From an uncultured Dehalococcoidales bacterium (lineage in GTDB: Bacteria; Chloroflexota; Dehalococcoidia; GIF9; UBA5629): DNA of 45,740 nt. A program made the translations under genes and the position numbers. Position 1 is the first letter of the stretch, and every line of letters begins with the position of its first letter. Below, piece by piece: positions 7,429-45,632 of this stretch. Under the pieces are notes generated by a model. The model saw only the letters and a list, made by a program, of their open reading frames with translations. It was not told the DNA's origin and did not search any database. The DNA is taken from contig CAZOQG010000002.1 in the NCBI GenBank assembly GCA_964582065.1, positions 1 through 45,740 on the forward strand. Reading direction: 5' to 3'.

Positions 7429-7506
7429 TTGAAATGGGAAATCCCGAATTATGGGTGAGGATCACCTCATTGTGAGTTGAAATGGGAAATCCCAAATAAT
7501 AGGTGA
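7429..7506 (+). repeat. Two 30-nt direct repeats, period 48 nt
   Basis: ttgaaatgggaaatcccgaattatgggtga (7429-7458) and ttgaaatgggaaatcccaaataataggtga (7477-7506). Both contain TGGGAAATCC, which recurs at 17993-18002. A related sequence occurs near 34112-34140. Confidence 0.8.
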
Positions 7507-7526
7507 ACCTATCGATAGTACTATTC

Positions 7527-7554
7527 TTGACAGCCCAAAATATTTTGCTACAAT
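7527..7554 (+). promoter_or_regulatory. Sigma70-type promoter for the 7608 membrane-protein gene
   Basis: TTGACA (7527-7532), a 16-nt spacer, then TACAAT (7549-7554). It lies about 55 nt upstream of the ATG at 7608, which has an AAGGAGG Shine-Dalgarno. Confidence 0.5.
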
Positions 7555-7607
7555 ATGATAAAATGAATATGCGGGGTAGCAAAAATAAAAAAGGAGGTAA
7601 TTAATTC

Positions 7608-7961
7608 ATGAAAAAAACTTGGGTATTGGTCAGTTTCATATTGTTTTGCATAGGCCTGGTACTAGCTGTTATTGGAGGTATAGTACTTCCCGCAAATGCC
7701 ATCATTGCAATGGTACTAGCAGTCTTCGGCCTGGCAATCGGGATTATCTATGTTGTCTATGCCAAACAAGTTGAGGGCTTGCATACCTTGCTTCTCGCTA
7801 CCATAGCCCTGCTGGCAATGACAGCTGCTTTCACCCCCATTGCAGTTCTGGGCGTAGGTGCAGCAGTTACCAGCATGCTCGTGAATTTTGCTGCTCTGAT
7901 GGCACCAGTGGCCCTTATTGCTGCAGCAAAAGCACTGCTAACAATAGGTATGGAGAGGTAG
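7608..7961 (+). CDS. Small polytopic membrane protein, unknown function
   Basis: The 117-aa product is almost entirely hydrophobic, with 3-4 predicted TM helices rich in A/I/L/V/G. It has a strong Shine-Dalgarno (aaaggaggtaattaattcATG) and a consensus promoter upstream. Confidence 0.65.
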   Translation: MKKTWVLVSFILFCIGLVLAVIGGIVLPANAIIAMVLAVFGLAIGIIYVVYAKQVEGLHTLLLATIALLAMTAAFTPIAVLGVGAAVTSMLVNFAALMAPVALIAAAKALLTIGMER

Positions 7962-8386
7962 CTTTAAGAAGTAGTCTAGCCTATAATCCAGAGCTAGACA
8001 AATCTCTGCAAATCCTGTATTATTGGTTATGGGGGTCACCATACCATGAGGCGTATGGTTGTTGGCCACAGGTATTCGGTTCTGGTCAGGTATGGATGGC
8101 CCCCTACTGCTGCCTCATTGAATTAGTTCATAGCCCTTAAACATATCTTCTCAACTCAAATAGCTTGCCGCAGTGCGGGCATCGAGGGCAGCACTCCTCA
8201 CATTGAGCGACTTCCCCCACCGGACCGACCGCACACTCGCCGTTATGTTCAAGCTGGCGAGGCAGGTAGATGGCGTCACATTTCTTACAATAGCGGACGC
8301 TTGGTTTTTCCCACTTAACATAGTGACAGTAATCGATATGGAAGATGCCGGCTTAATGCTGGCGCAAGCCGAAGGATAAGGAGAAT

Positions 8387-21367: not shown

Positions 21368-21505
21368 ACAAGTTCTTGAGTTCGCTGAGAGTGTCAAATT
21401 GTCAGCATGAGCGGCAGCGAAGGGTCTCAAGGTCGGAATGCAAAAGTTGAGGATAAAAATGCAAAATGGCAGATTGGAATTTGAAAAGCAATCCATGCCC
21501 TTTTT

Positions 21506-21640
21506 GTCATTGCGAGGAGCACAAGCGGTTGCGAGGCGTAGCCGAAGCAAACTCGGAGTGGGATTCCTCGCTTGCGCTCGGAACAAGCTCCGCAATCTCG
21601 GTAGGGGGCAATGAGATTGCCACGCTTCGCTCGCAATGAC
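21506..21640. repeat. Repeat element bounded by a 12-nt inverted repeat (gtcattgcgagg / cgctcgcaatgac family)
   Basis: gtcattgcgagg at 21506-21517 and ctcgcaatgac at 21630-21640 flank GC-rich palindromic sequence. The same family recurs at 28401-28560, with a fragment at 45440-45470. Confidence 0.7.
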
Positions 21641-21792
21641 ACTCGCGAATAAGGGCCGGCTCTAAAGGGGGGTAGAAAACAATATTTGTCATTTCAACTT
21701 TTGAGTCTGAAATTCTAAGTCAGCAATAATGAAAGGCTCAGAATGACAGCCAGGATTGATAAACGACTTCACTCGTTAGTGATGATAGAGGG

Positions 21793-23442
21793 CTAGAGTG
21801 AGTTGAGGATGCTCTCTATTTCCTCCGGGCTGTGAAAACGCCCTTCCTTTACTTCCCTGATAATACCATCGGCATCGATAAAGGAAGTTGTGGGGAAAAG
21901 CGCGGGTTGGTAAACCTCGTCAACCATTCCTTCTGAATCGAGCAGGACGGGGAAACTCAGTCCTTGGTTGTCAACAAAGCTCCTTACAGTTTCGGTGCTC
22001 TCTCTAACATTGATGGCAAGTATTACCAAGTCGTCATCTGACCATTCCTCAAAAACTGCCTGGATGTGAGGCATTTCAACTATACAAGGCTGGCACCCGC
22101 TCAGCCAGAAGTTGATCATTACTATCTTACCGCGAAGGCCGCTCAAAGTCAGGCTTTCGCCATCAATAGTCGGGAGGGTGAAATCAGGGGCGCGCATGCC
22201 TGCTCCGGTGCCGATGGGTAAGGCAGAGAGAGTTATTACTGGAAAGATATGAAGTGTCGCTTCATGTCCGGTAGCATCTTTTGACTTCAGTTCGACGTGA
22301 TAGCGCGTATAGGGCTGTAGCCCGCTCAAACTTACACTATGGTCACTGGTCGACTCGTCAAGAGATACTGTGATTGACTCCCAAGAATCAGTTATCCAAT
22401 ACTCAACCTCGCTGGTGCCAGGTTCATCAGTTTGCCACTTTATCGTGGCACTTGATTCGGCAACATTGGAAACGTCCACATGCCAAATCACTGGAGGGCT
22501 TACATCGGTTAGAGTCGTGAATGAATACTTCTTAGACAGAGCTTGATTCTCTAGGTTATAGCCAGACAACACTTGGAAGTGACACGTAGTATCGGGGGCG
22601 AGACCATGCACCGCTACGCTATGCTCAGTAACCAGGGTTCCATCGGGCGAAGTGGGTACGTGGGGGCCATGTTCAGTGTCGCATACTATGGCGTCGCTGG
22701 CAGACGGCTCATCGGTCACCCAGGTGATAATGGCGCTCTTATCCGTAGCTGAGGCCGATACATCGGAAATTGTGGGCGCTATGCTCTTCATGTCTGTATT
22801 GGTCTTTATGCTGTTGAGTATATCTTCTATTTCATCTTGGCTACTGAAATGTCCCACGGTTGCCAATCTGATAATGCCCCTGGCATCGATGAACAAATGC
22901 ACGGGGCAGCGCATGATATCGTAATCTGCGCCGACTCCTTCTGAATCAAGCAGGACGGGAAAAGTTAAACCATGTCTTGTGATGAATTCTTCGACCGCAG
23001 CGCGGTCCGCCCAAACATTAATGCCCAATATCGCCAATTCCTTTTCTGGCCATTTATCGCGGGCTCCCTGGATGGAGTGAATCTCCTGGTCTAGTCTCCC
23101 GTCGTGGTTACCAAGATCCCCCCAAAAAGTGAGCATCACCATCCTGCCCCGAAAGTCCCTCAAACTGACGTTCTGGCCATCAGTGGTTTGCAGACTAAAC
23201 TCCGGGGCTCGATTGCCGACCTCGGGACCTATTTCAGGAGCGGTGATTAATGCAACCACGCCCCAGATACCCGCTCCAAGAAGACAGACACTGATTACGG
23301 CTGTAGCAAAGACATGCTGCGGAGCAACTTTCCCTGCTGTCCTCAGGGGTGCGAAGAACCTGGAAAGTATGGCATTGGAAGACTTGGCAGCTCTGCGCCT
23401 TGATTTCCCGACTGTGTTATCCTTTTTTTTCGGCATCGCCAA
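21793..23442 (-). CDS. Membrane-anchored protein: basic N-tail, TM, degenerate (Cys-less) thioredoxin fold, 2x FN3/PAP-N-like domains, TlpA-like thioredoxin (CQPC). Referred to here as ZFT-C.
   Basis: The TM helix is FATAVISVCLLGAGIWGVVALI. The first redoxin-like domain reads MLTFWGDLGNHDG where CXXC is expected. The FN3-like repeats are SASDAIVCDTEHG...HSVAVHGLAPDTTCHF and GTSEVEYW...HSVSLSGLQPYTRYHV. The C-terminal domain is MINFWLSGCQPCIVEMPHIQAV...FPVLLD. The start is TTG at 23442 or ATG at 23436. Confidence 0.8.
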   Translation of the reverse strand: MAMPKKKDNTVGKSRRRAAKSSNAILSRFFAPLRTAGKVAPQHVFATAVISVCLLGAGIWGVVALITAPEIGPEVGNRAPEFSLQTTDGQNVSLRDFRGRMVMLTFWGDLGNHDGRLDQEIHSIQGARDKWPEKELAILGINVWADRAAVEEFITRHGLTFPVLLDSEGVGADYDIMRCPVHLFIDARGIIRLATVGHFSSQDEIEDILNSIKTNTDMKSIAPTISDVSASATDKSAIITWVTDEPSASDAIVCDTEHGPHVPTSPDGTLVTEHSVAVHGLAPDTTCHFQVLSGYNLENQALSKKYSFTTLTDVSPPVIWHVDVSNVAESSATIKWQTDEPGTSEVEYWITDSWESITVSLDESTSDHSVSLSGLQPYTRYHVELKSKDATGHEATLHIFPVITLSALPIGTGAGMRAPDFTLPTIDGESLTLSGLRGKIVMINFWLSGCQPCIVEMPHIQAVFEEWSDDDLVILAINVRESTETVRSFVDNQGLSFPVLLDSEGMVDEVYQPALFPTTSFIDADGIIREVKEGRFHSPEEIESILNSL

Positions 23443-23559
23443 CTACCCTGGTTCTCAGCCGTTGAGCTGTACTGCTCGCCGCAGGTTCTTGATTGTGTTA
23501 TCGGCGGATTGGAGGACGGTAAACATGTGGTCACATTCAGCAGCCACGATTACAGGTTA

Positions 23560-25449
23560 CTAGAGAGAGTCGAGTATCTCCTCAATTTTCTCCTGGCTGC
23601 TGAAATACCCAACCTGTACTTCCTGAATAATACCCTCAGTATCGATGAAGAAAGTAGTGGGCCATTGATTTACGCTGTAATTGGCATGGACTGCTCCTAC
23701 CGAATCAAGCAAGGCGGGGAAAGTCAATTCTTCGCTGTCCATGAAACTCCGGATAGTGTCAGCGTTATCAATTTTATTGACTCCGAGTATTGCCAATTCA
23801 TCGGCTGACCAGTTATCGGAAACCGCCTGGATGTGAGGCATTTCAGCTGCGCAGGGACCACAAGCTACAAACCAGAAGTTGACCATCACTATTTTGCCTC
23901 GAAAATCACTGAGAGTCACGTCTTGCCCGTCGAGGTTATGCAGGGTGAAGGGGGGAGCGCGGTTGCCTTCTTGATAACCTACCGGGATGGTGGGGAGAGT
24001 CTTAAATTGGTCTGCATCAGAGGTGGTTTCATTTCCGCTGGTGTCTTTCGACTTCACCCTGAAGTGATAGGTCGTGTCGGCCTCCAGGTCGGTTAGTGTG
24101 ACGCTATGGCTGGTGGTCAGCTCCTCATCCAGTGTTGTGGTTGAACCGTAATCAACGGTTGTCCCGTATTCCACCTGGCTGGTGGCTTCTTCGTCCGTTG
24201 ACCATTCAATGGTGGCGCCTGTTTCGGTAGTATCGGAGACATCGACATCCGAAATCAGCGGCGTCGTCGTATCAGCCTGGGCTGAAGTTGTGAAATCCCG
24301 TTCGTATGTCGTCTCATTTTCGCTTTCGTCTTCTGATATCAGAGTCAAGTGATAAGTCGTATTTGGGTCGAGGTCGCTTAAGGTTACAGAATGGTTAGTA
24401 ACCAAAGCCTCGTCGGGCTCTGTCCAAGTACAAACTTCACCAGGGTCGCATATCATGACCTGGCTGGTAGCTGGCTCGTCGGTCTCCCAGGTAACAATAG
24501 CCCCTGTGGCGGTTATTGACGAAAGCGACACGTCTTGGATTACCGGGGGCGTGCTATCTGGAGCGGTGGGTGGTGGTGTGGTTCCTGGCTGGGAGAATGT
24601 GTAGTACAAATAGAGGCCGAGAAAGCCTACAAACACGGCCAGGAGACCGAACGAGGAGATTCTTAGCAGCAGCCGTCGTGTCGGCGGTAAGATGCCCCAT
24701 TCTCCTGGCGCCGGGCGTGCCACTTGATACGGATAGGGGCGCCCCGGCGACAGAGGCCTCGCCGTTGCTGTCGTAACGCTGGCTGCTACTGGTGCAGCAC
24801 GTAGTGCTTGCTGCTGCATCCCACCATATGGCGTGGCAGGAGGCGGACCATAACTTGGAGGATATCCGGAACCGGGGCCAGCAGGAACGCCATGCGTGGG
24901 GTAATTATACTGAGGGCCAGTGATATAGCCTCCGCGGAATTGCTGGCCTGTAGCGCTTTGTGGCCTCGGTGGTGCCGGGCTTGGTGGTGCTGGTGGGGGA
25001 GGGCTTGGTGTGGCGAAGGGTGTAGGGGTGGCTGCTGCTGGGGCGGCGGGTGCTGCTTGGCCCTGCATCTTTTCGAGTAGCTTCTTGCCAAGAAGCAAAC
25101 CACACCTTGGGCACTGTCCGGTTGCAGGGTTAACCGCAATGCCACACTGGGGGCAATTGAGTTGGACACTTGTCTGAGGGGCTCTGGGAAACTGCTGACC
25201 AACAACAGTTTGCCGGCCGGGCGCAAGATACGTTACTTGCTGCTGCATCGCCGGGGCTGCCTGCGGCACGCCTCCATATCCGGCCGTACCACCGAGAAAG
25301 CCGCAATTAGGGCAGTATTTGGATCGGGTAGGAATAGTGCCGCCACATCTGGGGCAGCCAGGGACTAGTCTGGCACCGCATTGTAAGCAGAATTGCTGTC
25401 CTATTGCATTGTGCCAGCCACAATTAGGGCATCTGGTTATTTGCTGCAC
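23560..25449 (-). CDS. Zinc-ribbon, Pro-rich linker, TM, 2x FN3/PAP-N-like domains, TlpA-like thioredoxin (CGPC) membrane protein. Referred to here as ZFT-B.
   Basis: The N-terminus has CPNCGWHNAIGQQFCLQCG, CPRCGG...YCPNCG and CPQCGIAVNPATGQCPRCG. A P/A-rich segment follows. The TM helix is ISSFGLLAVFVGFLGLYLYY. The FN3-like repeats are ATSQVMICDP...HSVTLSDLDPNTTYHL and ATSQVEYGTTVDYG...HSVTLTDLEADTTYHFRV. The thioredoxin domain is MVNFWFVACGPCAAEMPHIQAV. The start is GTG. Confidence 0.85.
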   Translation of the reverse strand: MQQITRCPNCGWHNAIGQQFCLQCGARLVPGCPRCGGTIPTRSKYCPNCGFLGGTAGYGGVPQAAPAMQQQVTYLAPGRQTVVGQQFPRAPQTSVQLNCPQCGIAVNPATGQCPRCGLLLGKKLLEKMQGQAAPAAPAAATPTPFATPSPPPPAPPSPAPPRPQSATGQQFRGGYITGPQYNYPTHGVPAGPGSGYPPSYGPPPATPYGGMQQQALRAAPVAASVTTATARPLSPGRPYPYQVARPAPGEWGILPPTRRLLLRISSFGLLAVFVGFLGLYLYYTFSQPGTTPPPTAPDSTPPVIQDVSLSSITATGAIVTWETDEPATSQVMICDPGEVCTWTEPDEALVTNHSVTLSDLDPNTTYHLTLISEDESENETTYERDFTTSAQADTTTPLISDVDVSDTTETGATIEWSTDEEATSQVEYGTTVDYGSTTTLDEELTTSHSVTLTDLEADTTYHFRVKSKDTSGNETTSDADQFKTLPTIPVGYQEGNRAPPFTLHNLDGQDVTLSDFRGKIVMVNFWFVACGPCAAEMPHIQAVSDNWSADELAILGVNKIDNADTIRSFMDSEELTFPALLDSVGAVHANYSVNQWPTTFFIDTEGIIQEVQVGYFSSQEKIEEILDSL

Positions 25450-25557
25450 GCTGTAACCGTTTCCCGATTGCTTCGGCGCATCTTGCCCTTTCTGCTATCC
25501 ACTTGTCTTCCTGTTGTGCCTCTATTAGTTTTGCAGGACATACCGAATGTCTTCCCT

Positions 25558-25565
25558 ATTATACA
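25558..25565 (-). promoter_or_regulatory. Extended -10 element (TGTATAAT) upstream of ZFT-B
   Basis: The minus strand reads GGTGTATAATAGG, about 109 nt upstream of the GTG start. The same octamer and several leader blocks are shared with the ZFT-A upstream region. Confidence 0.4.
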
Positions 25566-25754
25566 CCTAGGCAAAGCAAAAAGTAGAACATCAAGTGCGG
25601 AACCCGTAGCCGCAAGTGATGCTGGAAGGTACGGCGACAGGCTTGATGGGCTGTATGTCGGCAGGGGCGAAGCCTGTCACAGCGCTTTAGTTTGCTCTGG
25701 CTGCACTAGAAACAAGTTAGGCAAACCGCCGAGGAGCTGATGGCAGCAAAGAAG

Positions 25755-27752
25755 TCATTGAATTCGGTCGAATACACCTTCTATTTCCGCTGCGTCGAGG
25801 AAACGTCCAATCTTGATTTCTCTGATAATTCCGTCACAGTCGATGAAAACGCTTGTGGGTACTGTCCAGATATGATAGCTATCGATAGTCGTATCTTCTG
25901 TATCAAGTAATATGGGAAAACGGAAATGCCCATATTCGTCTGTATGTCTCTCGATAATCGTTTCAATACGGTCAGTTCTGTCTCCATCAACGCATACAGT
26001 AATCACTGCCAAACATGCGCTATCATCATTTTGCCTGCATGCATCGCCATGATAAACCTCGCGAATGAAGGGAAACTCTACTACGCAGGCTCCACAACGG
26101 GTTGACCAGAAGTTAAGCAATAGCTTCTTCTTGCCCACGAACTTGGTTAAGTCAACGGTCTCACCGTCGTTGGGCGATTCGGGATCATTGGCATCATTGT
26201 ACTCTGGCAGGGATGGGATTAGTGGAGCGCGGTCGCCTACTTCGTGGCCGATAGGGATGGCGCGAAGAGTTATTAGTGTTTTGGTATTGGAGGTGGCCTC
26301 ATTTCCGCTGGCATCTACCGATTTTGCCCTGAAGTGATAGGTTGTATTTGGCTTTAGGCCGGTCAGTCGGACAGTATGGCTCTGTTTCAAGTTGTCCTCT
26401 AAGGGCGTGGTTTCGTGGCCGCCGTCAGTTTTCCAATACTCAACCTGGCTGGTGGCATCTTCGTCAGTCTGCCAGGTCATGGCGGTGCTTATGTCCGTCG
26501 GTGGGGAAACCTCGACTGCCAAAATGTCCGGCGGGGTTGTATCCTTGAGTTTGAAATATGCGGTAACGTTCTTATTCGAGTCCATAATAATCGGAATAAC
26601 GGGGATTTCTGCCGAGGAACCTGGGACATCACCCCCCCAGTGCTCGAAAGTGTAACCACTCGCGGCGGCAGCGGTCAGTGTCACCTCAATACCAGATGTA
26701 TATGTTTCATTCTCGGGAGACCGAGATACCTGTCCTCCGGCTTCGGGCTTACGGTTTGTGGCCAAGATATAGGTTTGGGCGGCGGCAGGAGGGGGAATTG
26801 GATTAGTAATAGGGTTGGCGGTTGAAGTCGAAGGCAGTGAAACATTCCCTATTTTGGTCACAGCGTAGTAGCCGCCAAGGCCTGCGATTGCAAGAAACAC
26901 GGCTGCCCAGAACCCTCGCAGTAGAAGCTGTCTCGTTGACGGTGGGATGCTCCACCCTCTCGGTGCGGGCCAGGAAGGACGCGCCGCTTTTCGTGCTGCG
27001 CTGGCTACGTTGGCTAGCGTTTGCCTTGTCCAATGCGGGATGTCCCACTCTCTCCGTTCACCGCGTGTTATTTCTGTTAGGAGCGGGCTCCGCGGCGCGA
27101 CCACATCCGGCTCTTTCGGTTCGGTGGCGGTAATTTCGTTTAGAAGCGGACTCCGTGATGGTGGAATGGTCCCTTCGCTCGCTGCAACCGGTGCAGCCGG
27201 TGTTGATTGCTCATGAGTCTTCCGAGGTGGCCCGTACATCCAGCCGCACTGTGGGCACAGTCCGGATTCTGGGTCAACGCTAGCGTCGCACTTGGGGCAT
27301 CTGTACTCGTGTGCCGCGTCAGGAACTCCAGGGGATTGCTGATGTGCAATGGTTTGTGGGCTTGGTGCCGACACAGGTCTCACTGGCGTTGGCGCAGGCC
27401 CTGTTTCTTCGAGTGTACCACTTCCTGTTGGCTGCGGAGTCTCTATAGGTAGCATCTTACCCCGGTGGTCGCAGCTCGGACAACATCCATCCGCAGTATT
27501 AACCGTGGTGTGACACCTGGGGCACATGTATTTGGGCCCCGGGTAAGAAGGTTTCGGGGATTGCTGGTGTGCAGAAGCTTGCGATTCGCCTTTATCTAAC
27601 TGCTTCCAGGGGGCATCCTGCGGAGTGCACTCCTGGCAGAAATAGGTACGTGCATTATGGGGCAACTTTGCGCCGCATTTCCTACAGAAACGCTGACCGG
27701 AGGCGTCTTCGGGCGGCACGAAATACTTGGGCTTGTGGCTCATCGGGGACAT
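25755..27752 (-). CDS. 3x zinc ribbon, TM, InlB-B-repeat-like domain, FN3/PAP-N-like domain, TlpA-like thioredoxin (CGAC) membrane protein. Referred to here as ZFT-A.
   Basis: The zinc ribbons are CRKCGAKLPHNARTYFCQEC, CPRCHTTVNTADGCCPSCD and CPKCDASVDPESGLCPQCG. RSPLL(N/T)EIT is repeated. The TM helix is GFWAAVFLAIAGLGGYYAV. YTSGIEVTLTAAAASGYTFEHWGGDV...VTAYF is an InlB B-repeat-like pattern. The FN3-like domain is ATSQVEYWKTDGG...HTVRLTGLKPNTTYHFRA. The thioredoxin domain is LLNFWSTRCGACVVEFPFIREV. Confidence 0.85.
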   Translation of the reverse strand: MSPMSHKPKYFVPPEDASGQRFCRKCGAKLPHNARTYFCQECTPQDAPWKQLDKGESQASAHQQSPKPSYPGPKYMCPRCHTTVNTADGCCPSCDHRGKMLPIETPQPTGSGTLEETGPAPTPVRPVSAPSPQTIAHQQSPGVPDAAHEYRCPKCDASVDPESGLCPQCGWMYGPPRKTHEQSTPAAPVAASEGTIPPSRSPLLNEITATEPKEPDVVAPRSPLLTEITRGERREWDIPHWTRQTLANVASAARKAARPSWPAPRGWSIPPSTRQLLLRGFWAAVFLAIAGLGGYYAVTKIGNVSLPSTSTANPITNPIPPPAAAQTYILATNRKPEAGGQVSRSPENETYTSGIEVTLTAAAASGYTFEHWGGDVPGSSAEIPVIPIIMDSNKNVTAYFKLKDTTPPDILAVEVSPPTDISTAMTWQTDEDATSQVEYWKTDGGHETTPLEDNLKQSHTVRLTGLKPNTTYHFRAKSVDASGNEATSNTKTLITLRAIPIGHEVGDRAPLIPSLPEYNDANDPESPNDGETVDLTKFVGKKKLLLNFWSTRCGACVVEFPFIREVYHGDACRQNDDSACLAVITVCVDGDRTDRIETIIERHTDEYGHFRFPILLDTEDTTIDSYHIWTVPTSVFIDCDGIIREIKIGRFLDAAEIEGVFDRIQ

Positions 27753-27869: not shown

Positions 27870-28303
27870 TGCAGGAAAAACAAAGTAAAATCAACTGTAC
27901 TCGTTCAACCCATTGGCGAGGCATCTCTCTTGTCTCAAGGCTGTAGGGACGGACCTTCAGGTCTGTCCGCTTCGGACGGGCCTGAAGACCCATCCCCACA
28001 TTTGCTGTGGCACTGGGGTTGACGTTGTTTCGCTGTGCTGTCCTAAACTTTATGAGACTTCTCTTTTCGTGCGAGCCGCGTAGCGTGAGGTTTTGACCTC
28101 GTCCGATCCTACTAGGCGACCTTAGAAGGTCGCGCTTACATTCAGTGACTTGTAGCATTGTTTGCGAAATTGCTTCGCGGAGCCTGTCCCGACCTTCACG
28201 AGATTCTTCGGTCGCTACGCTCCCTGGGAATGAGAGAAGGCGAAGTGCTCAGAACCACACCAAATTGTCATTGCTACGAAAATAGATTCTCATCCTTTAT
28301 GTT

Positions 28304-28360
28304 GGGTAGATTGGAGCATCGGCTCCAATCACGCCTAGAGCAGATGCTCTAGGCTACCCT
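28304..28360. repeat. 57-nt structured repeat, copy 1 (identical to 45549-45605)
   Basis: The sequence is gggtagattggagcatcggctccaatcacgcctagagcagatgctctaggctaccct. An outer 6-bp stem (gggtag/ctaccc) encloses two perfect 8-bp hairpins with 4-nt loops (attggagc-atcg-gctccaat and cctagagc-agat-gctctagg). Confidence 0.9.
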
Positions 28361-28468
28361 TATTTTCGTCCTCCGTGGTGCCGATTGCAATAGGCATGAC
28401 TGATTGCGAGGAGCGTAAGCGACCAAGCAATCTAGGACGAAGGCGCGACTGTGAGATTGCTTCGCTTC

Positions 28469-28560
28469 GCTCGCAATGACAGGAAGGGAGAGCTCGCAAT
28501 GACAGGAAGGGAGAGCTCGCAATGACAGGAAGGGAGAACTGAGAATGACACAAGGCGAAG
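28469..28560. repeat. Tandem 23-nt repeat: 3 perfect copies plus 1 degenerate copy
   Basis: gctcgcaatgacaggaagggaga occurs at 28469-28491, 28492-28514 and 28515-28537. A degenerate unit, actgagaatgacacaaggcgaag, follows. The array is contiguous with no spacers. Confidence 0.9.
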
Positions 28561-28807: not shown

Positions 28808-29158
28808 TTATTGATGGTTGTCCCTGGATTGCATAGGGCCGCTGTAGCCGCAACTTCGTTCATTTGGGCATCGTCCATATGCTTTGTTAATCCTGGCGCC
28901 ACAGCGGGGGCATGTGTATCGTGATGTCATGCGGAGAACATGCGGGGATTTTCGGGTTTCAGCGTCCTGGCGCCCTGTCAGCGGAGGAACAGTCGCCGCT
29001 TTCGCCGCCGCATTTGTTGCTCGAAGTCGGATATCCTTATGTTCCATTTGGCCAATGAAGCCACACTCCGGACAGTTTCCAGAGGCGATCTTAGTTTTGG
29101 CACCACACTTGGGGCACCTGTATCGGGACTTGAAATCATCTTGTACTTCGTGTGGCAT
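28808..29158 (-). CDS. Soluble double zinc-ribbon protein. Referred to here as ZnR-D.
   Basis: YRCPKCGAKTKIASGNCPECG and YTCPRCGARINKAYGRCP resemble the ribbons of ZFT-A and ZFT-B. No TM helix is present. The start is uncertain (ATG at 29158 or TTG at 29200), and neither has a good Shine-Dalgarno. It lies 40-80 nt downstream of the serS stop. Confidence 0.5.
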   Translation of the reverse strand: MPHEVQDDFKSRYRCPKCGAKTKIASGNCPECGFIGQMEHKDIRLRATNAAAKAATVPPLTGRQDAETRKSPHVLRMTSRYTCPRCGARINKAYGRCPNERSCGYSGPMQSRDNHQ

Positions 29159-29240
29159 ACCGTTGCGTTTCACTGTAGCACAACCGAAGTCGCACTTCAA
29201 ACGTTTACAGAAGAGCCTGTTGTGGGCTGGCTCTCAATGC

Positions 29241-33956: not shown

Positions 33957-34492
33957 GTCTACACACTCCCCTTGGTCAAAAGAATGGACGGAATAGAGAC
34001 CTTACTCAACTTCCCTCTCCTTTGATGGGAGAGGTTAGGTGAGGGTGAACAAAACTGAGAAGTGAGAAGTTAAAGGTCAAAGGCCAAAAGTCAAAATGGC
34101 AAATGGGAATACAAATAGTGAGTTTTTGCTCTTCAGAGCTAGATCACTGAACTCCTTTTTGGATTTTGACTTGTAATTTTGCATTTTACATTTCAACTCT
34201 TACATTCCTACCTGCGGACCCTTCGCTGCGCTCAGGGGGACAGTCATGCTGGTCATGTCGGGGGACCTCACACTCACAAGAATCTGAACCAACCGCTCTG
34301 GGTATTGGGTTGCCTCGTTTGGCTTCCAATGACAGCGGCCAAGGGCTCAGCGTCACAGTGACATTTATTGTGAATAGACAACTTGATGATATAGAGGCAG
34401 CCAAGATATGGGAACGTCAAGCTAAGGTACTGCGCAAGGGAATAGCTGTGAAACTCAATCTAGCGTCGGCATTAGGCAAAAGACAGCCCATG

Positions 34493-34540
34493 AGCAAAAA
34501 GCAAACCTACGTTGGAAGTGCAACAGACTTCCAACGTAGG
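34493..34540 (-). terminator. Rho-independent terminator of the Cys-rich protein gene
   Basis: The minus strand reads CCTACGTTGGAAGT-CTGTTGC-ACTTCCAACGTAGG. This is a perfect 14-bp stem with a 7-nt loop followed by TTTGCTTTTTGCT. It lies about 55 nt after the stop at 34596. Confidence 0.75.
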
Positions 34541-34595
34541 CCCTCAGGCTTTGCAGCCAATTTAGCTCTTGAGTACTTGTCTTATCCAATCCGGG

Positions 34596-35279
34596 TTATA
34601 GGCAGCCGTCACCAAAATCCTGAAGGAGATTGTCCTGGAGAGCCCAACAGTGGGCAACGCATTCCGTATGTGTGGATCCAGTGGTCCCCCAGTCGCCTCC
34701 CCAGTTCTCAGCGCCGCCGGCGCTATTGCCGAAGTGGTTCGGGTGCTCGTTGTTCCACCTTGGGTGTGGACTGATGTCACCACCACCCCAGCTCTTGTTG
34801 GCAAAGCAGAGGCTGATTCCCCAGCAGCAGCAGCAATGTGCCGTTTTATATCCCGTCGCTGCTTGGCACTCTCCATCGCTCATTCCCAGTGCTGGACAAG
34901 CCGTGGCGGCCTGGGACAGTTCGCACTCTACCGGGTCGTCGCAGCATGCCAGGCATCCTTGCTCCTCGTTACAGGAGCAGCAACCGCCTTCACAGGAAGG
35001 GATGTCACACCCCGTGACTCTTGAGCCAGGGCACAAGCCTGACAAATTACAGTTATCGTGTAACATGTCGGGATAAGCGAGGCCTGCCAGGCGAGACATG
35101 GCAGTGACCGGAGTCCTTCCCCAGTGCTGCAGGTACAAAACCACCGAATTCTCGTTGTCCTCCCACTTCACCGGATCCCAGGTGCAATCGTCACCTAAGC
35201 CTGCTGAGACAGGCGATGGTACCAGCACCAGGGACACTGCCAGCATAAAGACAAACAGGCTACCGACAATTTTCCTCAA
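34596..35279 (-). CDS. Secreted cysteine-rich protein (22 Cys, including a CCCC run), no recognisable family
   Basis: The start is TTG with a perfect AAGGAGGTG Shine-Dalgarno 7 nt upstream. The signal peptide is MRKIVGSLFVFMLAVSLVLVPSPVSA. The mature part contains CNLSGLCPGSRVTGCDIPSCEGGCCSCNEEQGCLACCDDPVEC...AHCCCCWGISLC...ECVAHC...GCL. Dedicated promoters and a dedicated terminator are present. Confidence 0.75.
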   Translation of the reverse strand: MRKIVGSLFVFMLAVSLVLVPSPVSAGLGDDCTWDPVKWEDNENSVVLYLQHWGRTPVTAMSRLAGLAYPDMLHDNCNLSGLCPGSRVTGCDIPSCEGGCCSCNEEQGCLACCDDPVECELSQAATACPALGMSDGECQAATGYKTAHCCCCWGISLCFANKSWGGGDISPHPRWNNEHPNHFGNSAGGAENWGGDWGTTGSTHTECVAHCWALQDNLLQDFGDGCL

Positions 35280-35314
35280 TTTGTCACCTCCTTATTTGAT
35301 TTGAGTTTTGATTG

Positions 35315-35343
35315 ATTCTACAAGGTCAATCAGCCTTTGTCAA
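35315..35343 (-). promoter_or_regulatory. Promoter P1 of the Cys-rich protein gene
   Basis: The minus strand reads TTGACA (35343-35338), a 17-nt spacer, then TAGAAT (35320-35315). It lies about 36 nt upstream of the start codon. Confidence 0.55.
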
Positions 35344-35346
35344 GTG

Positions 35347-35375
35347 ATTTTACAAGGTCAAAAGCTGTTTGTCAA
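35347..35375 (-). promoter_or_regulatory. Promoter P2 (tandem duplicate of P1)
   Basis: The minus strand reads TTGACA (35375-35370), a 17-nt spacer, then TAAAAT (35352-35347). It is part of a 30-nt direct repeat, 25/30 identical to the P1 copy, with a 32-nt period. Confidence 0.5.
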
Positions 35376-39762: not shown

Positions 39763-40584
39763 CTATTCTTCCTCGTCCTCCTCCTCCTCCTCCTCCTCCT
39801 CTTCTTCCTCTGGTGGCCAAACGGGCCTGGTGTAGCGGTCGATGAATTCCCCCATAGCTTCAGCGGCCAGCCTCTTCATTTCCTCCTCTGACTCCTTAGC
39901 CACTTTGGCAAGTTCAGCCAAATTGATGTCTATGCCGAGGATTTTGGTCAGGATGGCGAGTACGGCCAAGGAGGCCTTTGGATTGGGTATTCGAGTGGTA
40001 TAACCAGGCACCTCACCTAATAGGCAGATACCATCAATTCCCCTCTCCTTGGCTACTCCCAAGAACAAGCCGTTGAGCCCAGCAATCTGAAGTTCGCCGC
40101 GAAGAACGATGTCATGTTTCTTTAGCTCTTCGATAAGTTTTTGATTCGTGGTGGCCCCCCAGACCCTTGATGGTTCGGTGTGGTGAATTCGAGCAATAGC
40201 CGCAGCACAGGTGTATACCCTTTTCACCTTGAATTTCTGACTGACATCCAAAACACAGTTGGCCAGCTCATAGCCTTTTGAGCTAGGTTGCTCATCGCCA
40301 ATAAACAAGACTATGTCCCTCTCGGAGTTGGGATTGTGCCAATAATAGAATTTGCTTTCCGGGAATTGAGGAGCTTCTACTATGTTGCCTTTGACCATAA
40401 CGCCGATGGGGTCAAAGAAATGGGAGGGTTGAATTTCCCCAATCTCTTCAGCATTTAGCTTGTCTTTCATATACCGGGCAACGATAAGTGCCACGTTTCC
40501 AATCCCAGGCCAAGCTGCAATCAGGTCACATGCCTTAGGATGTGGTTCTTTATAGAGTCTGACCGTGTCTTTCATACCTTTCAC
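39763..40584 (-). CDS. PAC2 (proteasome assembly chaperone 2-like) family protein with a 15-residue acidic C-terminal tail
   Basis: DLIAAWPGIGNVALIVARYM...VLFIGDEQP...GLNGLFLGVAKERGIDGICLLGEVPGY resembles the PAC2 family as I recall it. The tail PP-E11-D-E3 is read directly from (ctc/ttc)n at 39766-39810. The stop abuts the HEAT gene ATG. Confidence 0.6.
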   Translation of the reverse strand: MKGMKDTVRLYKEPHPKACDLIAAWPGIGNVALIVARYMKDKLNAEEIGEIQPSHFFDPIGVMVKGNIVEAPQFPESKFYYWHNPNSERDIVLFIGDEQPSSKGYELANCVLDVSQKFKVKRVYTCAAAIARIHHTEPSRVWGATTNQKLIEELKKHDIVLRGELQIAGLNGLFLGVAKERGIDGICLLGEVPGYTTRIPNPKASLAVLAILTKILGIDINLAELAKVAKESEEEMKRLAAEAMGEFIDRYTRPVWPPEEEEEEEEEEEDEEE

Positions 40585-43386: not shown

Positions 43387-43448
43387 ATGTAGTGCGAGGC
43401 TAAAGCCTCGCACGAAACGCCAGGCGACCTTGAAAGGTCGCACTACAT
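43387..43448. repeat. Palindromic intergenic element (atgtagtgcgagg...ggtcgcactacat family), copy 1
   Basis: The sequence is atgtagtgcgaggctaaagcctcgcacgaaacgccaggcgaccttgaaaggtcgcactacat. It contains two internal hairpins, and the termini are mutually complementary. It lies 43 nt upstream of the tldD ATG. Confidence 0.85.
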
Positions 43449-45548: not shown

Positions 45549-45605
45549 GGGTAGATTGGAGCATCGGCTCCAATCACGCCTAGAGCAGATGCTCTAGGCT
45601 ACCCT
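45549..45605. repeat. 57-nt structured repeat, copy 2 (identical to 28304-28360)
   Basis: All 57 nt match by direct comparison. The flanking bases differ on both sides. Confidence 0.9.
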
Positions 45606-45632
45606 ATATGAAAGCTTGGATGCTTTACCTCT

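What the first reader, a model, noticed from the sequence alone, without database searches (positions are those of the whole stretch)
34596..35279. Orphan secreted protein with 22 cysteines including a CCCC run
**Seen in sequence**
- The 227-aa ORF has a perfect Shine-Dalgarno (AAGGAGGTG, 7 nt upstream of a TTG start).
- It has a typical Sec signal peptide, MRKIVGSLFVFMLAVSLVLVPSPVSA.
- It has its own terminator with a 14-bp stem.
- The mature protein has 22 Cys, an even number. Most are concentrated in a ~100-aa core: CNLSGLCPGSRVTGCDIPSCEGGCCSCNEEQGCLACCDDPVECELSQAATACPALGMSDGECQAATGYKTAHCCCCWGISLC.
- A Gly/Trp/His/Asn-rich segment follows (WGGGDISPHPRWNNEHPNHFGNSAGGAENWGGDWG), then two more Cys pairs.
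- I recognise no family.

**Inference**
- Candidate roles are a disulfide-knotted extracellular protein, a thiolate metal (Cu/Zn/Cd) binding or storage protein, or a precursor or scaffold needing dedicated oxidative folding.
- The three exported TlpA-like redoxins about 5.4 kb away are possible folding partners. The intervening genes are housekeeping (serS-lysS-greA), so this link is speculative.
Basis: partly seen in the sequence, partly recalled or inferred. Interest (0 to 1): 0.65.

Follow-up and report, generated by a model that had tools for sequence, protein, structure and literature searches.

The report
Hyper-expressed secreted disulfide-rich protein family
This is a real, very strongly transcribed gene for a small exported protein held together by about eleven disulfide bonds; it founds an unnamed family found only in one group of uncultured anaerobic Dehalococcoidia, and its function is still unknown.

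Summary
The ORF at 34596-35279 (-) is as described: 227 aa, TTG start, GGAGG ribosome site, Sec-type signal peptide, 22 Cys including CCCC, and a strong terminator.

It is not an orphan. There are 162 protein clusters and 62 species-level genomes, all uncultured Dehalococcoidia/Dehalococcoidales. The gene is single-copy and always sits between speH-speE and DUF2007-DRTGG-greA-lysS-serS. No Pfam, NCBIfam, PDB sequence or Foldseek relative exists.

Across 179 members the Cys count runs from 13 to 36 and is even in 93%. Cysteines appear and vanish strictly in pairs, many times independently. Examples are 202/213 (109 both, 0 single, 70 neither) and the two middle Cys of CCCC (66/2/0/111). This argues for disulfides and against thiolate metal clusters.

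All 66 loci with enough upstream sequence carry TTGACA-N17-TAnAAT, and all listed carry GGAGG. 63 of 65 have a terminator. Lake metatranscriptome contigs cover exactly this gene at depth 25-89, against 5 or less for neighbouring genes. Peat, bioreactor and outdoor metatranscriptomes match, within a 9-kb homologous locus, almost only the homologue.

dN/dS is about 0.15. The best reading is an abundant extracellular, probably envelope-associated, disulfide-stapled protein with a conserved Trp/His/Asp/Glu surface. The link to the neighbouring redoxins is not separable from block synteny.

The parts
34596..35279 (-). CDS of the Cys-rich exported protein (227 aa, TTG start, TAA stop at 34596-34598)
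   Evidence: ORF list and sequence. 58 full-length homologues with a single-sequence query and 162 clusters with a profile. Median dN/dS is 0.155.
35202..35279 (-). Signal peptide, residues 1-26 (MRK / 17-residue hydrophobic core / PSPVSA; predicted signal peptidase I cut after A26)
   Evidence: Read from the sequence. P21 and A26 are at least 90% conserved. There is no lipobox Cys and no twin-arginine motif. SignalP was not run.
35052..35201 (-). Conserved N-terminal segment of the mature protein, residues 27-76 (VKWEDNENSW.LYLQHWGRTP..AMSRLAGL). It holds core C32.
   Evidence: This segment is under the strongest constraint, with median dN/dS 0.067. Invariant or near-invariant residues are K38 W39 N42 S45 Y49 L50 W53 G54 T56 P57 A60 M61 R63 L64 G66 L67 P70. 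C32 is lost together with C207 in at least 13 members.
34824..35051 (-). Cys-rich middle region, residues 77-152. It is variable in sequence and length, but core Cys 83, 96, 100, 103, 113, 119, 128, 138, 149 and 152 are kept.
   Evidence: Mean top-residue frequency is 0.50 for residues 77-148, against 0.70-0.78 in the conserved segments on either side. This is the best-modelled part of the AF2 model, with pLDDT 73-86.
34824..34835 (-). CCCC run, residues 149-152. It is an invariant C-x-x-C whose two inner positions are either both Cys or neither.
   Evidence: Tetrapeptide counts among 179 members: CCCC 62, CSGC 32, CGFC 27, CAGC 16 and others. For columns 150/151: both Cys 66, one only 2, neither 111, with 26-28 parsimony changes. 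In 7 of 8 close-relative contrasts the switch is both to neither.
34629..34823 (-). Conserved C-terminal segment, residues 153-217 (WG.SL.FANKSW ... HPNHFG ... GGDWG..G..H.EC ... W.LQDN). It carries the H179/H182/H204/E206/D196 cluster and core C207.
   Evidence: Residues conserved at 90% or more are W153 G154 S156 L157 A160 K162 W164 H182 G184 G194 G195 D196 W197 G198 G201 H204 E206 C207 W212 L214 Q215 N217. The 'HHHED' combination occurs in 141 of 179 members.
35285..35293 (-). Shine-Dalgarno AAGGAGGTG
   Evidence: Sequence. GGAGG is present upstream of the start in all listed homologous loci.
35315..35343 (-). Proximal sigma-70-type promoter, TTGACA-17-TAGAAT (11 of 12)
   Evidence: Promoter scan: 6 sites found against 1.4 expected in shuffles. 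A TTGACA-N17-TAnAAT promoter at 10 of 12 or better is present in 66 of 66 loci with enough upstream sequence.
35347..35375 (-). Distal tandem promoter, TTGACA-17-TAAAAT (11 of 12)
   Evidence: Promoter scan. RNA contigs reach 35323/35324, which lies upstream of the proximal promoter's expected start site, so the distal promoter is probably used. Six loci show two such promoters.
34493..34543 (-). Intrinsic terminator: 17-pair stem, 7-nt loop, then GCTTTTTGCT
   Evidence: Terminator scan. A hairpin of -16 to -33 kcal/mol followed by a T tract lies within about 70 nt of the stop codon in 63 of 65 homologous loci.
34566..35324 (-). Span of the transcript contigs in lake metatranscriptomes
   Evidence: Contigs span 34568-35324 (X6, depth 38), 34566-35323 (X7, depth 25) and 34566-35291 (X9, depth 89). 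The X10 contig spans 34297-35139 (depth 50). Neighbouring genes are at depth 0-5.

Best explanation
**Shown**
- The gene is a monocistronic unit built for very high expression: tandem near-consensus promoters, a GGAGG ribosome site and a strong terminator.
- It is heavily transcribed in situ.
- It is a single-copy gene at a fixed position in one clade of uncultured, anoxic-habitat Dehalococcoidia.

**Inferred from sequence rules**
- The product is exported by Sec and cut after A26.
- This gives an acidic protein of about 21 kDa (pI 4.4) with few aliphatic residues.

**Inferred from family evolution**
- All 22 cysteines form intramolecular disulfides: 6 core bonds plus 5 accessory ones.
- Three core bonds are assigned from co-loss: C32-C207, C83-C152 and C103-C128.
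- The accessory bonds are C77-C91, C101-C158, C109-C112, C211-C226 and a probable vicinal C150-C151 inside the invariant C149-x-x-C152.
- C32-C207 ties the two best-conserved segments (residues 27-76 and 153-217) into one domain around a variable, disulfide-stapled middle.

**Inferred with least support**
- The conserved Trp-rich surface with H179/H182/H204/E206/D196 is the working site. It would bind a ligand, a metal or an envelope polymer.
- The expression level points to a stoichiometric role. The protein would be an abundant, protease- and reductant-resistant extracellular or envelope-associated component, not an enzyme or a metal store.
For: **Real, conserved gene**
- 58 homologues with a single-sequence query and 162 clusters with a profile.
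- 62 GTDB species genomes, all Dehalococcoidia MAGs.
- An exhaustive phmmer run over 1.84 billion representatives finds only this tight family.
- Median dN/dS is 0.155.
- The position is identical in all 69 loci.

**Disulfides**
- The Cys count is even in 167 of 179 members, over a range of 13-36.
- Paired columns, given as both / only first / only second / neither: 202-213 at 109/0/0/70 with about 31 changes each; 150-151 at 66/2/0/111; 167-219 at 33/0/2/144; 68-74 at 126/0/1/52; 188-208 at 85/0/3/91; 101-158 at 12/0/0/167.
- Among disjoint pairs of relatives at least 80% identical, 23 of 23 differ at 202/213 as both versus neither. For 150/151 the figure is 7 of 8.
- Core Cys are lost as the pairs 32+207, 103+128 and 83+152.

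**Expression**
- RNA contigs in four lake metatranscriptomes cover 34566-35324 at depth 25-89, against 5 or less for neighbouring genes.
- For the homologue in L051, contigs from peat, bioreactor and outdoor RNA runs map almost only to the gene.
- A promoter is present in 66 of 66 loci, GGAGG in all listed loci, and a terminator in 63 of 65.

**Export**
- The signal peptide is conserved.

**No known fold or family**
- all found nothing.
Against: - No protein-level evidence exists. Secretion, signal cleavage and the disulfides are all inferred.
- The structural or envelope role rests only on abundance, export and cross-linking. There is no anchoring motif: no SLH domain, LPXTG motif, lipobox or C-terminal sorting signal. 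A free protein could diffuse away.
- The AF2 model is mediocre (pLDDT 60.7, pTM 0.59), and its coordinates could not be inspected for Cys-Cys geometry.
- Contig k-mer depth is a rough proxy for expression. A different small membrane-protein gene in the window (7608-7961) is 8-10 times deeper.
- Three transcript contigs end at 34566, upstream of the predicted terminator.
- Twelve of 179 members have odd Cys counts.
Confidence: 0.55

Rival explanations
1. It is a diffusible scavenger or carrier. The conserved H179/H182/H204/E206/D196 cluster binds a trace metal or small cofactor outside the cell, and the holo-protein is recaptured. This would be a hemophore- or zincophore-like logic.
For: H182, H204, E206 and D196 are at least 95% conserved, and the 'HHHED' combination occurs in 141 of 179 members. 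The protein is small, soluble, acidic and very highly expressed, with no anchor.
Against: No receptor, ABC transporter or regulator lies beside the gene in any of 69 loci; the neighbours are housekeeping genes. The promoter looks constitutive and near-consensus, not like a metal-regulated one. The site geometry is unknown because the model is weak there, with pLDDT of about 47-60.
Confidence: 0.2
2. It is a thiolate metal-binding or storage protein, metallothionein- or Csp-like.
For: The mature protein is 11% Cys, with CC, CxC and CCCC motifs.
Against: Cysteines are gained and lost in strict pairs, including sequence-distant pairs such as 32-207, 101-158 and 167-219. Counts are even in 93% of members. 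The protein is exported unfolded by a Sec-type signal. Only 12 of the 13-36 Cys are conserved.
Confidence: 0.05
3. It is a dedicated substrate or partner of the three membrane-anchored TlpA-like redoxins 5-13 kb away, which reduce or isomerise its disulfides.
For: A redoxin gene follows serS in 47 of 47 loci that reach far enough. The redoxins have cytoplasmic zinc ribbons, one transmembrane segment, fn3/PAP_N domains and a C-terminal redoxin domain with CQPC, CGPC or CGAC, so they face outside. An 11-disulfide protein plausibly needs isomerase help.
Against: The whole block is syntenic, including serS, lysS, greA, speHE and HEAT/GNAT genes, so co-occurrence says nothing specific. The genes are in separate transcription units, with a terminator after the Cys-rich gene and opposite or separated orientation. 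From established knowledge, TlpA/ResA-type proteins are reductants for cytochrome c or copper-site maturation, not oxidative folding catalysts. The redoxin genes are weakly transcribed (depth 0-2.5), while the Cys-rich gene is at 25-89.
Confidence: 0.1
4. It is a secreted antimicrobial, toxin or protease inhibitor used in competition or defence.
For: It is small, disulfide-rich, secreted and stable, and the middle region is variable.
Against: It is a single-copy gene at one fixed locus in every genome of the clade. There is no immunity, transport or mobile-element context. Purifying selection acts throughout: dN/dS is 0.13 even in the variable middle. Single members gave one isolated, sub-threshold Pfam hit each (PT-VENN, Nodulin_late), which is noise.
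Confidence: 0.07
5. It is a spurious ORF or a non-coding transcript.
For: It has a non-ATG start and no annotated family. Long antisense ORFs overlap it on the plus strand at 34166-34774 and 34630-35076.
Against: There are full-length protein homologues at 41-79% identity with conserved motifs. dN/dS is 0.155. The ribosome site, promoter and terminator are conserved on this strand in more than 60 loci.
Confidence: 0.01

Closest known systems
Cysteine-rich envelope proteins of wall-poor bacteria (chlamydial OmcA/OmcB outer-membrane complex; planctomycete YTV-type cystine-rich wall proteins). Recalled from knowledge, not tested experimentally here.
   Same: Abundant, exported, Cys-rich proteins whose disulfides give mechanical and chemical stability to the cell surface. 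They are lineage-restricted.
   Different: There is no sequence relation: no Pfam hit for any of 114 members. In those systems intermolecular cross-links matter. Here the even counts and paired evolution point to intramolecular bonds. No lipid or membrane anchor is present. An envelope location is not shown.
S-layer and major surface protein genes of monoderm bacteria, such as Lactobacillus slpA. Recalled from knowledge.
   Same: A monocistronic unit with tandem strong promoters, a strong ribosome site and a strong terminator. It is among the most abundant transcripts, and the product carries a Sec signal.
   Different: S-layer proteins are usually larger than 40 kDa and almost free of Cys. 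They carry SLH, CWB2 or similar anchoring domains, and none is found here.
Eukaryotic disulfide-rich secreted folds (thaumatin-like with 16 Cys in about 200 aa, granulin, knottins, snakin/GASA)
   Same: Similar size or Cys density. The fold is held by many disulfides rather than a hydrophobic core. The number of bonds is evolutionarily plastic.
   Different: No Pfam match to any of them. No Foldseek match to the PDB or to viral models. The Cys spacing differs.
Proteins with vicinal (adjacent-Cys) disulfides, such as methanol dehydrogenase Cys103-Cys104 and nicotinic receptor alpha Cys192-Cys193. Recalled from knowledge.
   Same: Residues 150 and 151 behave as a coupled adjacent pair that comes and goes together.
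   Different: Here the pair is facultative (present in 37% of members) and sits inside an invariant C-x-x-C. The bond itself is inferred, not observed. In CCCC members the connectivity of all four Cys could instead be rearranged.
Metallothioneins and copper storage proteins (Csp)
   Same: High Cys content with CC and CxC motifs.
   Different: This protein is exported by Sec, its cysteines evolve in pairs, and only part of them is conserved. Csp proteins are four-helix bundles, whereas this model is mostly irregular.

Membership tests
Sec-dependent secreted protein with a signal peptidase I site | N-terminal basic n-region, hydrophobic h-region of 10-20 residues, small residues at -3 and -1, and no Cys at +1 | tested here: met
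   MRK / IVGSLFVFMLAVSLVLV / PSPVSA followed by G. V at -3 and A at -1. A26 and P21 are at least 90% conserved. This is a rule-based reading; SignalP was not available.
Bacterial lipoprotein | Lipobox L-x-x-C with Cys at +1 of the mature protein | tested here: not met
   The first Cys is residue 32, and no lipobox is present in any member.
Tat-exported protein | Twin-arginine motif S/T-R-R-x-F-L-K in the n-region | tested here: not met
   The n-region is MRK in this protein. The family shows RK, KK or RR without the rest of the motif.
Disulfide-bonded (oxidised) extracellular protein | An even number of Cys, and gain or loss of Cys in pairs across homologues | tested here: met
   167 of 179 members have an even count. 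At least eight column pairs have phi of 0.93-1.00 with repeated independent switches. Core Cys are lost as pairs.
Disulfide-bonded (oxidised) extracellular protein | Disulfides observed chemically or in a structure | not testable with these tools
   This needs a mass shift on reduction, non-reduced peptide mapping or an experimental structure.
Metallothionein / thiolate-cluster metal store | Conserved Cys acting as independent metal ligands, with no requirement for pairing; usually cytoplasmic | tested here: not met
   Cysteines evolve in pairs and only 12 are conserved. A signal peptide is present. No metallothionein Pfam hit.
Any curated protein family (Pfam-A, NCBIfam, PHROGs) or solved structure | A significant profile or fold match | tested here: not met
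   Pfam gave only sub-threshold noise for this protein and for 114 members. NCBIfam gave 0 hits. The best PHROGs E-value was 0.22. The PDB profile search gave a best E-value of 2.9. Foldseek against the PDB and against viral models gave 0 hits.
S-layer / cell-wall-anchored surface protein | A recognisable anchoring module (SLH, CWB2, LysM, LPXTG or similar) | tested here: not met
   No such Pfam domain in any of 114 members. The C-termini are short and variable.
Thioredoxin-fold CxxC oxidoreductase | A thioredoxin fold with W-C-x-x-C at the N-terminus of a helix | tested here: not met
   No Thioredoxin or Redoxin Pfam hit. The motif here is C-x-x-C-W. C152 is co-lost with C83, which suggests C152 is bonded to C83 rather than to C149.

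The most novel reading that the evidence does not exclude
The family is the major surface 'armour' protein of this Dehalococcoidales clade and has a previously unseen fold. The number of disulfide staples (about 6 to 18, from 13-36 Cys) would be tuned repeatedly during evolution. A facultative vicinal disulfide inside an invariant CxxC would act as a strain or redox element. That would make it a functional analogue of the chlamydial and planctomycete cystine-rich wall proteins, in an anaerobe living in reducing water.
Probability: 0.2. Interest if true: 0.75.

Novelty: new variant of a known kind. Interest (0 to 1): 0.55.

Why it matters
Dehalococcoidia of anoxic lakes, peat and sediments are abundant, and the members of this clade are known only as uncultured MAGs. 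One of the two most transcribed genes in this 45.7-kb window, and by far the most transcribed in its own neighbourhood, is a protein that no database can name.

Knowing what it does would fill a hole in how these cells build or defend their surface, or how they acquire something scarce. The family is also a clean natural experiment in disulfide evolution. Dozens of independent paired gains and losses on one scaffold include an adjacent-Cys pair inside a CxxC. This gives a disulfide map that can be tested directly. It also raises the question of how an anaerobe oxidises 11 or more disulfides outside the cell.

For annotation, the family deserves its own model. Its invariant promoter, ribosome site and terminator could serve as a strong expression cassette for this phylum.

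Tried and rejected
- **Family searches.** Pfam, NCBIfam and PHROGs on the protein, and Pfam on 114 members, gave only isolated sub-threshold hits (DUF1263, PT-VENN, Nodulin_late, DLH). I rejected these as low-complexity noise.
- **Exhaustive phmmer.** The only non-family hit, P0071 (837 aa), is an fn3-repeat protein matching by composition. I rejected it.
- **Search for a relative lacking the gene.** I looked for a genome that keeps the neighbourhood but lacks the gene, using DRTGG-protein homologues. The listed hits go down only to 57% identity, and all three I examined carry the gene. L067 first looked like a gene-less case from its gene calls. tblastn then showed the Cys-rich sequence fused behind a truncated speE, so I withdrew that inference.
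- **N-glycosylation sequon N161-K-S.** It is not conserved (NKS in 92 of 179, GKS in 38), so I dropped it.
- **The 550-bp gap between the terminator and DUF2007.** It has no conserved element. It contains a copy of a dispersed repeat and is absent from other loci.
- **High RNA depth at 28.0-28.7 kb.** This comes from short matches of a multi-copy REP-like element, not from a local transcript.
- **Literature.** Searches found no paper on this family.
Full report
**1. The observation**

The minus-strand ORF at 34596..35279 encodes 227 aa from a TTG start.
- AAGGAGGTG lies at 35285-35293, and its GGAGG core ends 7 nt before the start codon.
- The N-terminus MRKIVGSLFVFMLAVSLVLVPSPVSA has the n/h/c layout of a Sec signal with V-S-A at -3..-1. 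There is no lipobox and no twin-arginine motif.
- The pattern scan finds a terminator at 34543..34503 (17 pairs, 7-nt loop, T-rich tail). It also finds two tandem promoters on the same strand: TTGACA-17-TAAAAT at 35375..35347 and TTGACA-17-TAGAAT at 35343..35315, each 11 of 12. In total 6 promoter-like sites were found in the region, against 1.4 expected.
- The protein has 22 Cys.
- The mature part is 201 aa, 21.4 kDa, pI 4.4, 11% Cys, 13% Gly, with 9 Trp and 8 His and few aliphatic residues.

**2. It is not an orphan, but no database can name it**

- A single-sequence search returned 58 homologues at 41-79% identity. A profile search returned 162 clusters. All are 'hypothetical' with no Pfam domain, and the named ones come from Chloroflexi/Dehalococcoidia MAGs.
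- An exhaustive phmmer run over 1.84 billion cluster representatives found only 19 representatives, all of them this family or fragments of it. The one exception is a compositional hit to an fn3-repeat protein.
- A scan of one genome per GTDB species found 62 loci. All are in uncultured Dehalococcoidia/Dehalococcoidales MAGs from lakes, peat, sediments, groundwater and soils, with one locus per genome.
- Pfam, NCBIfam, PHROGs, a PDB profile search and Foldseek against the PDB and viral models all gave nothing.

**3. Position in the genome**

All 69 homologous loci have the same gene order. It runs HEAT - GNAT - (CoA ligase) - speE/speH on the opposite strand - Cys-rich gene - DUF2007 - DRTGG/BioD-like gene on the opposite strand - greA - lysS - serS - redoxin genes.
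- The gene is therefore a fixed, single-copy part of this clade's chromosome.
- The neighbours are housekeeping genes and give no functional hint.
- A TlpA-like redoxin follows serS in 47 of 47 loci that reach far enough.
- In the window there are three such redoxins. Redoxins B and C have cytoplasmic zinc ribbons. All three have one transmembrane segment, fn3/PAP_N domains and a C-terminal redoxin domain, with CQPC, CGPC or CGAC active sites.
- Because everything in the block co-occurs, this says nothing specific about a partnership.
- I found no relative that lacks the Cys-rich gene. L067 seemed to lack it, but tblastn shows the sequence fused behind a truncated speE.

**4. It is coding and under constraint**

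For 446 pairs of loci with dS between 0.1 and 1.5, the median dN/dS is 0.155.

| Region (residues) | Median dN/dS |
|---|---|
| Signal peptide (1-26) | 0.156 |
| 27-76 | 0.067 |
| Cys-rich middle (77-148) | 0.128 |
| C-terminal part (149-227) | 0.194 |

Conservation is highest outside the Cys-rich middle.
- The N-terminal motif is VKWEDNENSW.LYLQHWGRTP..AMSRLAGL.
- The C-terminal motifs are CWG.SL.FANKSW, HPNHFG, GGDWG..G..H.EC and W.LQDN.
- H182, H204, E206 and D196 are at least 95% conserved, and H179 is conserved in 79% of members.

**5. The cysteines are disulfides**

I aligned 179 distinct full-length members.
- The Cys count runs from 13 to 36 and is even in 167 of them.
- Twelve positions form a conserved core: 32, 83, 96, 100, 103, 113, 119, 128, 138, 149, 152 and 207.
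- The other Cys columns come and go strictly in pairs:

| Column pair | Both Cys | One only | Neither | Parsimony changes per column |
|---|---|---|---|---|
| 202-213 | 109 | 0 | 70 | about 31 |
| 150-151 | 66 | 2 | 111 | 26-28 |
| 167-219 | 33 | 2 | 144 | 19 |
| 68-74 | 126 | 1 | 52 | 12-13 |
| 188-208 | 85 | 3 | 91 | 6-7 |
| 101-158 | 12 | 0 | 167 | 4 |

- The parsimony changes were counted on a tree built only from non-Cys columns.
- Pairs 77-91 and 109-112 behave the same way but less cleanly. Pair 211-226 did so in the first, smaller alignment.
- A control that does not depend on the tree agrees. Among disjoint pairs of relatives at least 80% identical, 23 of 23 that differ at 202/213 differ as both versus neither. 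For 150/151 it is 7 of 8.
- Rare losses of core Cys also come in pairs: 32+207 in at least 13 members, 103+128 in at least 9, and 83+152 in at least 7.

For the window's protein this gives 6 core and 5 accessory bonds.
- Core bonds assigned: C32-C207, C83-C152 and C103-C128. Three further core bonds among C96, C100, C113, C119, C138 and C149 remain unassigned.
- Accessory bonds: C77-C91, C101-C158, C109-C112, C150-C151 and C211-C226.
- C32-C207 ties the two conserved segments together.

The CCCC run is not peculiar to this protein.
- The invariant motif is C-x-x-C-W-G.
- The inner dipeptide is CC in 62 of 179 members. In the others it is SG, GF, AG and so on.
- The simplest reading is a facultative vicinal disulfide, but this is inference.
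- This pattern is what disulfides predict. It is not what independent thiolate ligands predict.

**6. Expression**

The window's DNA occurs in lake-water metagenomes and, strikingly, in many small lake metatranscriptomes of 20-170 Mb.
- In four of them, assembled RNA contigs cover 34566/34568 to 35291-35324 at k-mer depth 38, 25 and 89. In X10 the contig spans 34297-35139 at depth 50.
- All neighbouring genes from 32 to 38 kb are at depth 0-5. So is the rest of the window, with two exceptions.
- The first exception is short cross-matches of a dispersed repeat. The second is an unrelated small membrane-protein gene at 7.5-8.3 kb, which is even deeper.
- The homologue in L051 is from a fen MAG. 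RNA contigs from peat, a bioreactor and an outdoor sample match, within a 9-kb stretch, almost only the Cys-rich gene.

The expression signals are built into the family.
- TTGACA-N17-TAnAAT, at 10 of 12 or better and mostly 11 of 12, occurs 56-96 nt upstream of the start codon in 66 of 66 loci.
- GGAGG is present in all listed loci.
- A hairpin of -16 to -33 kcal/mol plus a T tract follows the stop codon in 63 of 65 loci.

Caveats:
- Contig depth is a rough measure.
- Contigs carry no strand information.
- Three contigs end at 34566, about 20 nt before the terminator stem. This may reflect processing, or poor read-through of the hairpin in library preparation.

**7. Structure**

- AF2 with 36 sequences failed, at pLDDT 44.
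- With 114 sequences and the mature protein only, it reached pLDDT 60.7 and pTM 0.59. The model is mostly irregular with four short helices. Its best-modelled part is residues 70-120 of the mature chain, at pLDDT 73-86.
- No fold match exists.
- I could not read the coordinates, so predicted Cys-Cys distances were not checked.

**8. What it most likely is**

- **Shown:** a real, conserved, single-copy, monocistronic gene with very strong expression signals and strong in-situ transcription.
- **Well supported by inference:** Sec export, and an all-disulfide state with 11 bonds here.
- **Weaker inference:** the protein works in stoichiometric amounts outside the cell, as a stable surface-associated or secreted component. 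Its conserved Trp/His/Asp/Glu face would be the binding site.

I put about 0.35 on an envelope or structural-protective role and about 0.2 on a diffusible metal or cofactor scavenger. Smaller weights go to the redoxin-partner, antimicrobial and thiolate-store ideas. A spurious ORF is excluded.

**9. Comparison with known systems**

- In logic it resembles the cystine-rich wall proteins of chlamydiae and planctomycetes, and S-layer genes in the way it is expressed.
- In chemistry it resembles eukaryotic disulfide-rich secreted folds.
- It is a member of none of them. Every testable membership criterion failed: no domain, no anchor and no fold match.
- It is best called a new, unnamed family within the broad kind 'bacterial secreted disulfide-rich proteins'.

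**10. Verdict**

'Orphan' is wrong, and the metal-thiolate and redoxin-partner ideas are not supported. Interest is moderate to good. The family is an abundant 'dark' protein of an uncultured lineage with an unusually clear signal of disulfide evolution and a directly testable bond map, but its function remains unknown.

Noticed in passing
window 7465-8312 (ORF 7608..7961, + strand): RNA contigs from the same four lake metatranscriptomes cover this stretch at depth 180-836 (about 97% identity), 8-10 times deeper than the Cys-rich gene. It holds a 117-aa very hydrophobic ORF with roughly four membrane helices and no Pfam hit. This is a second hyper-expressed unknown gene.
   Followed up: partly
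window 21400-21641, 27942-28550, 34176-34242; also near 8312, 39779-39811, 43413-43448 and 45549-45609: A dispersed REP-like element with a palindromic core (...GATTGCTTCGCTTCGCTCGCAATGACA...) and a 23-nt tandem repeat (three copies, 28469-28550). Many unrelated RNA contigs share only these 20-60 nt and then diverge, which creates false 'joints' and false depth at 28.0-28.7 kb.
   Followed up: partly
L067:7405-8628 (GCA_042573975.1, contig JBHPAN010000022.1): A called 407-aa 'spermidine synthase' is really speE residues 1-196 followed on the same strand by residues 6-218 of the Cys-rich protein. The spe genes are inverted relative to all other loci. This is either a real inversion or fusion, or a mis-assembly.
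   Followed up: partly
window 21793-27752 (three genes, - strand): Three paralogous membrane-anchored proteins with fn3/PAP_N domains and a TlpA-like redoxin domain carrying a CxxC (CQPC, CGPC, CGAC); two of them also have several cytoplasmic zinc ribbons. A small zinc-ribbon ORF lies at 28808-29200. At least one redoxin gene follows serS in every related locus that reaches that far.
   Followed up: partly
window 34566 (- strand RNA 3' end): Three independent RNA contigs stop at 34566/34568; in two of them (X7, X9) sequencing adapter abuts the end. This is 30 nt after the stop codon and before the terminator stem (34543-34503). A fourth contig reads through to 34297. Possible causes are 3' processing, hairpin-limited library coverage or partial read-through.
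   Followed up: no
start codons of the family (66 loci): Despite consensus promoters and GGAGG sites, most members start with GTG or TTG rather than ATG, as judged by the nearest in-frame start codon to the alignment.
   Followed up: no
window 34166-34774 and 34630-35076 (+ strand): Long antisense ORFs of 202 and 148 aa overlap the gene. They are most likely by-products of the GC-rich, Cys/Gly-codon-rich coding strand, and nothing supports them.
   Followed up: no
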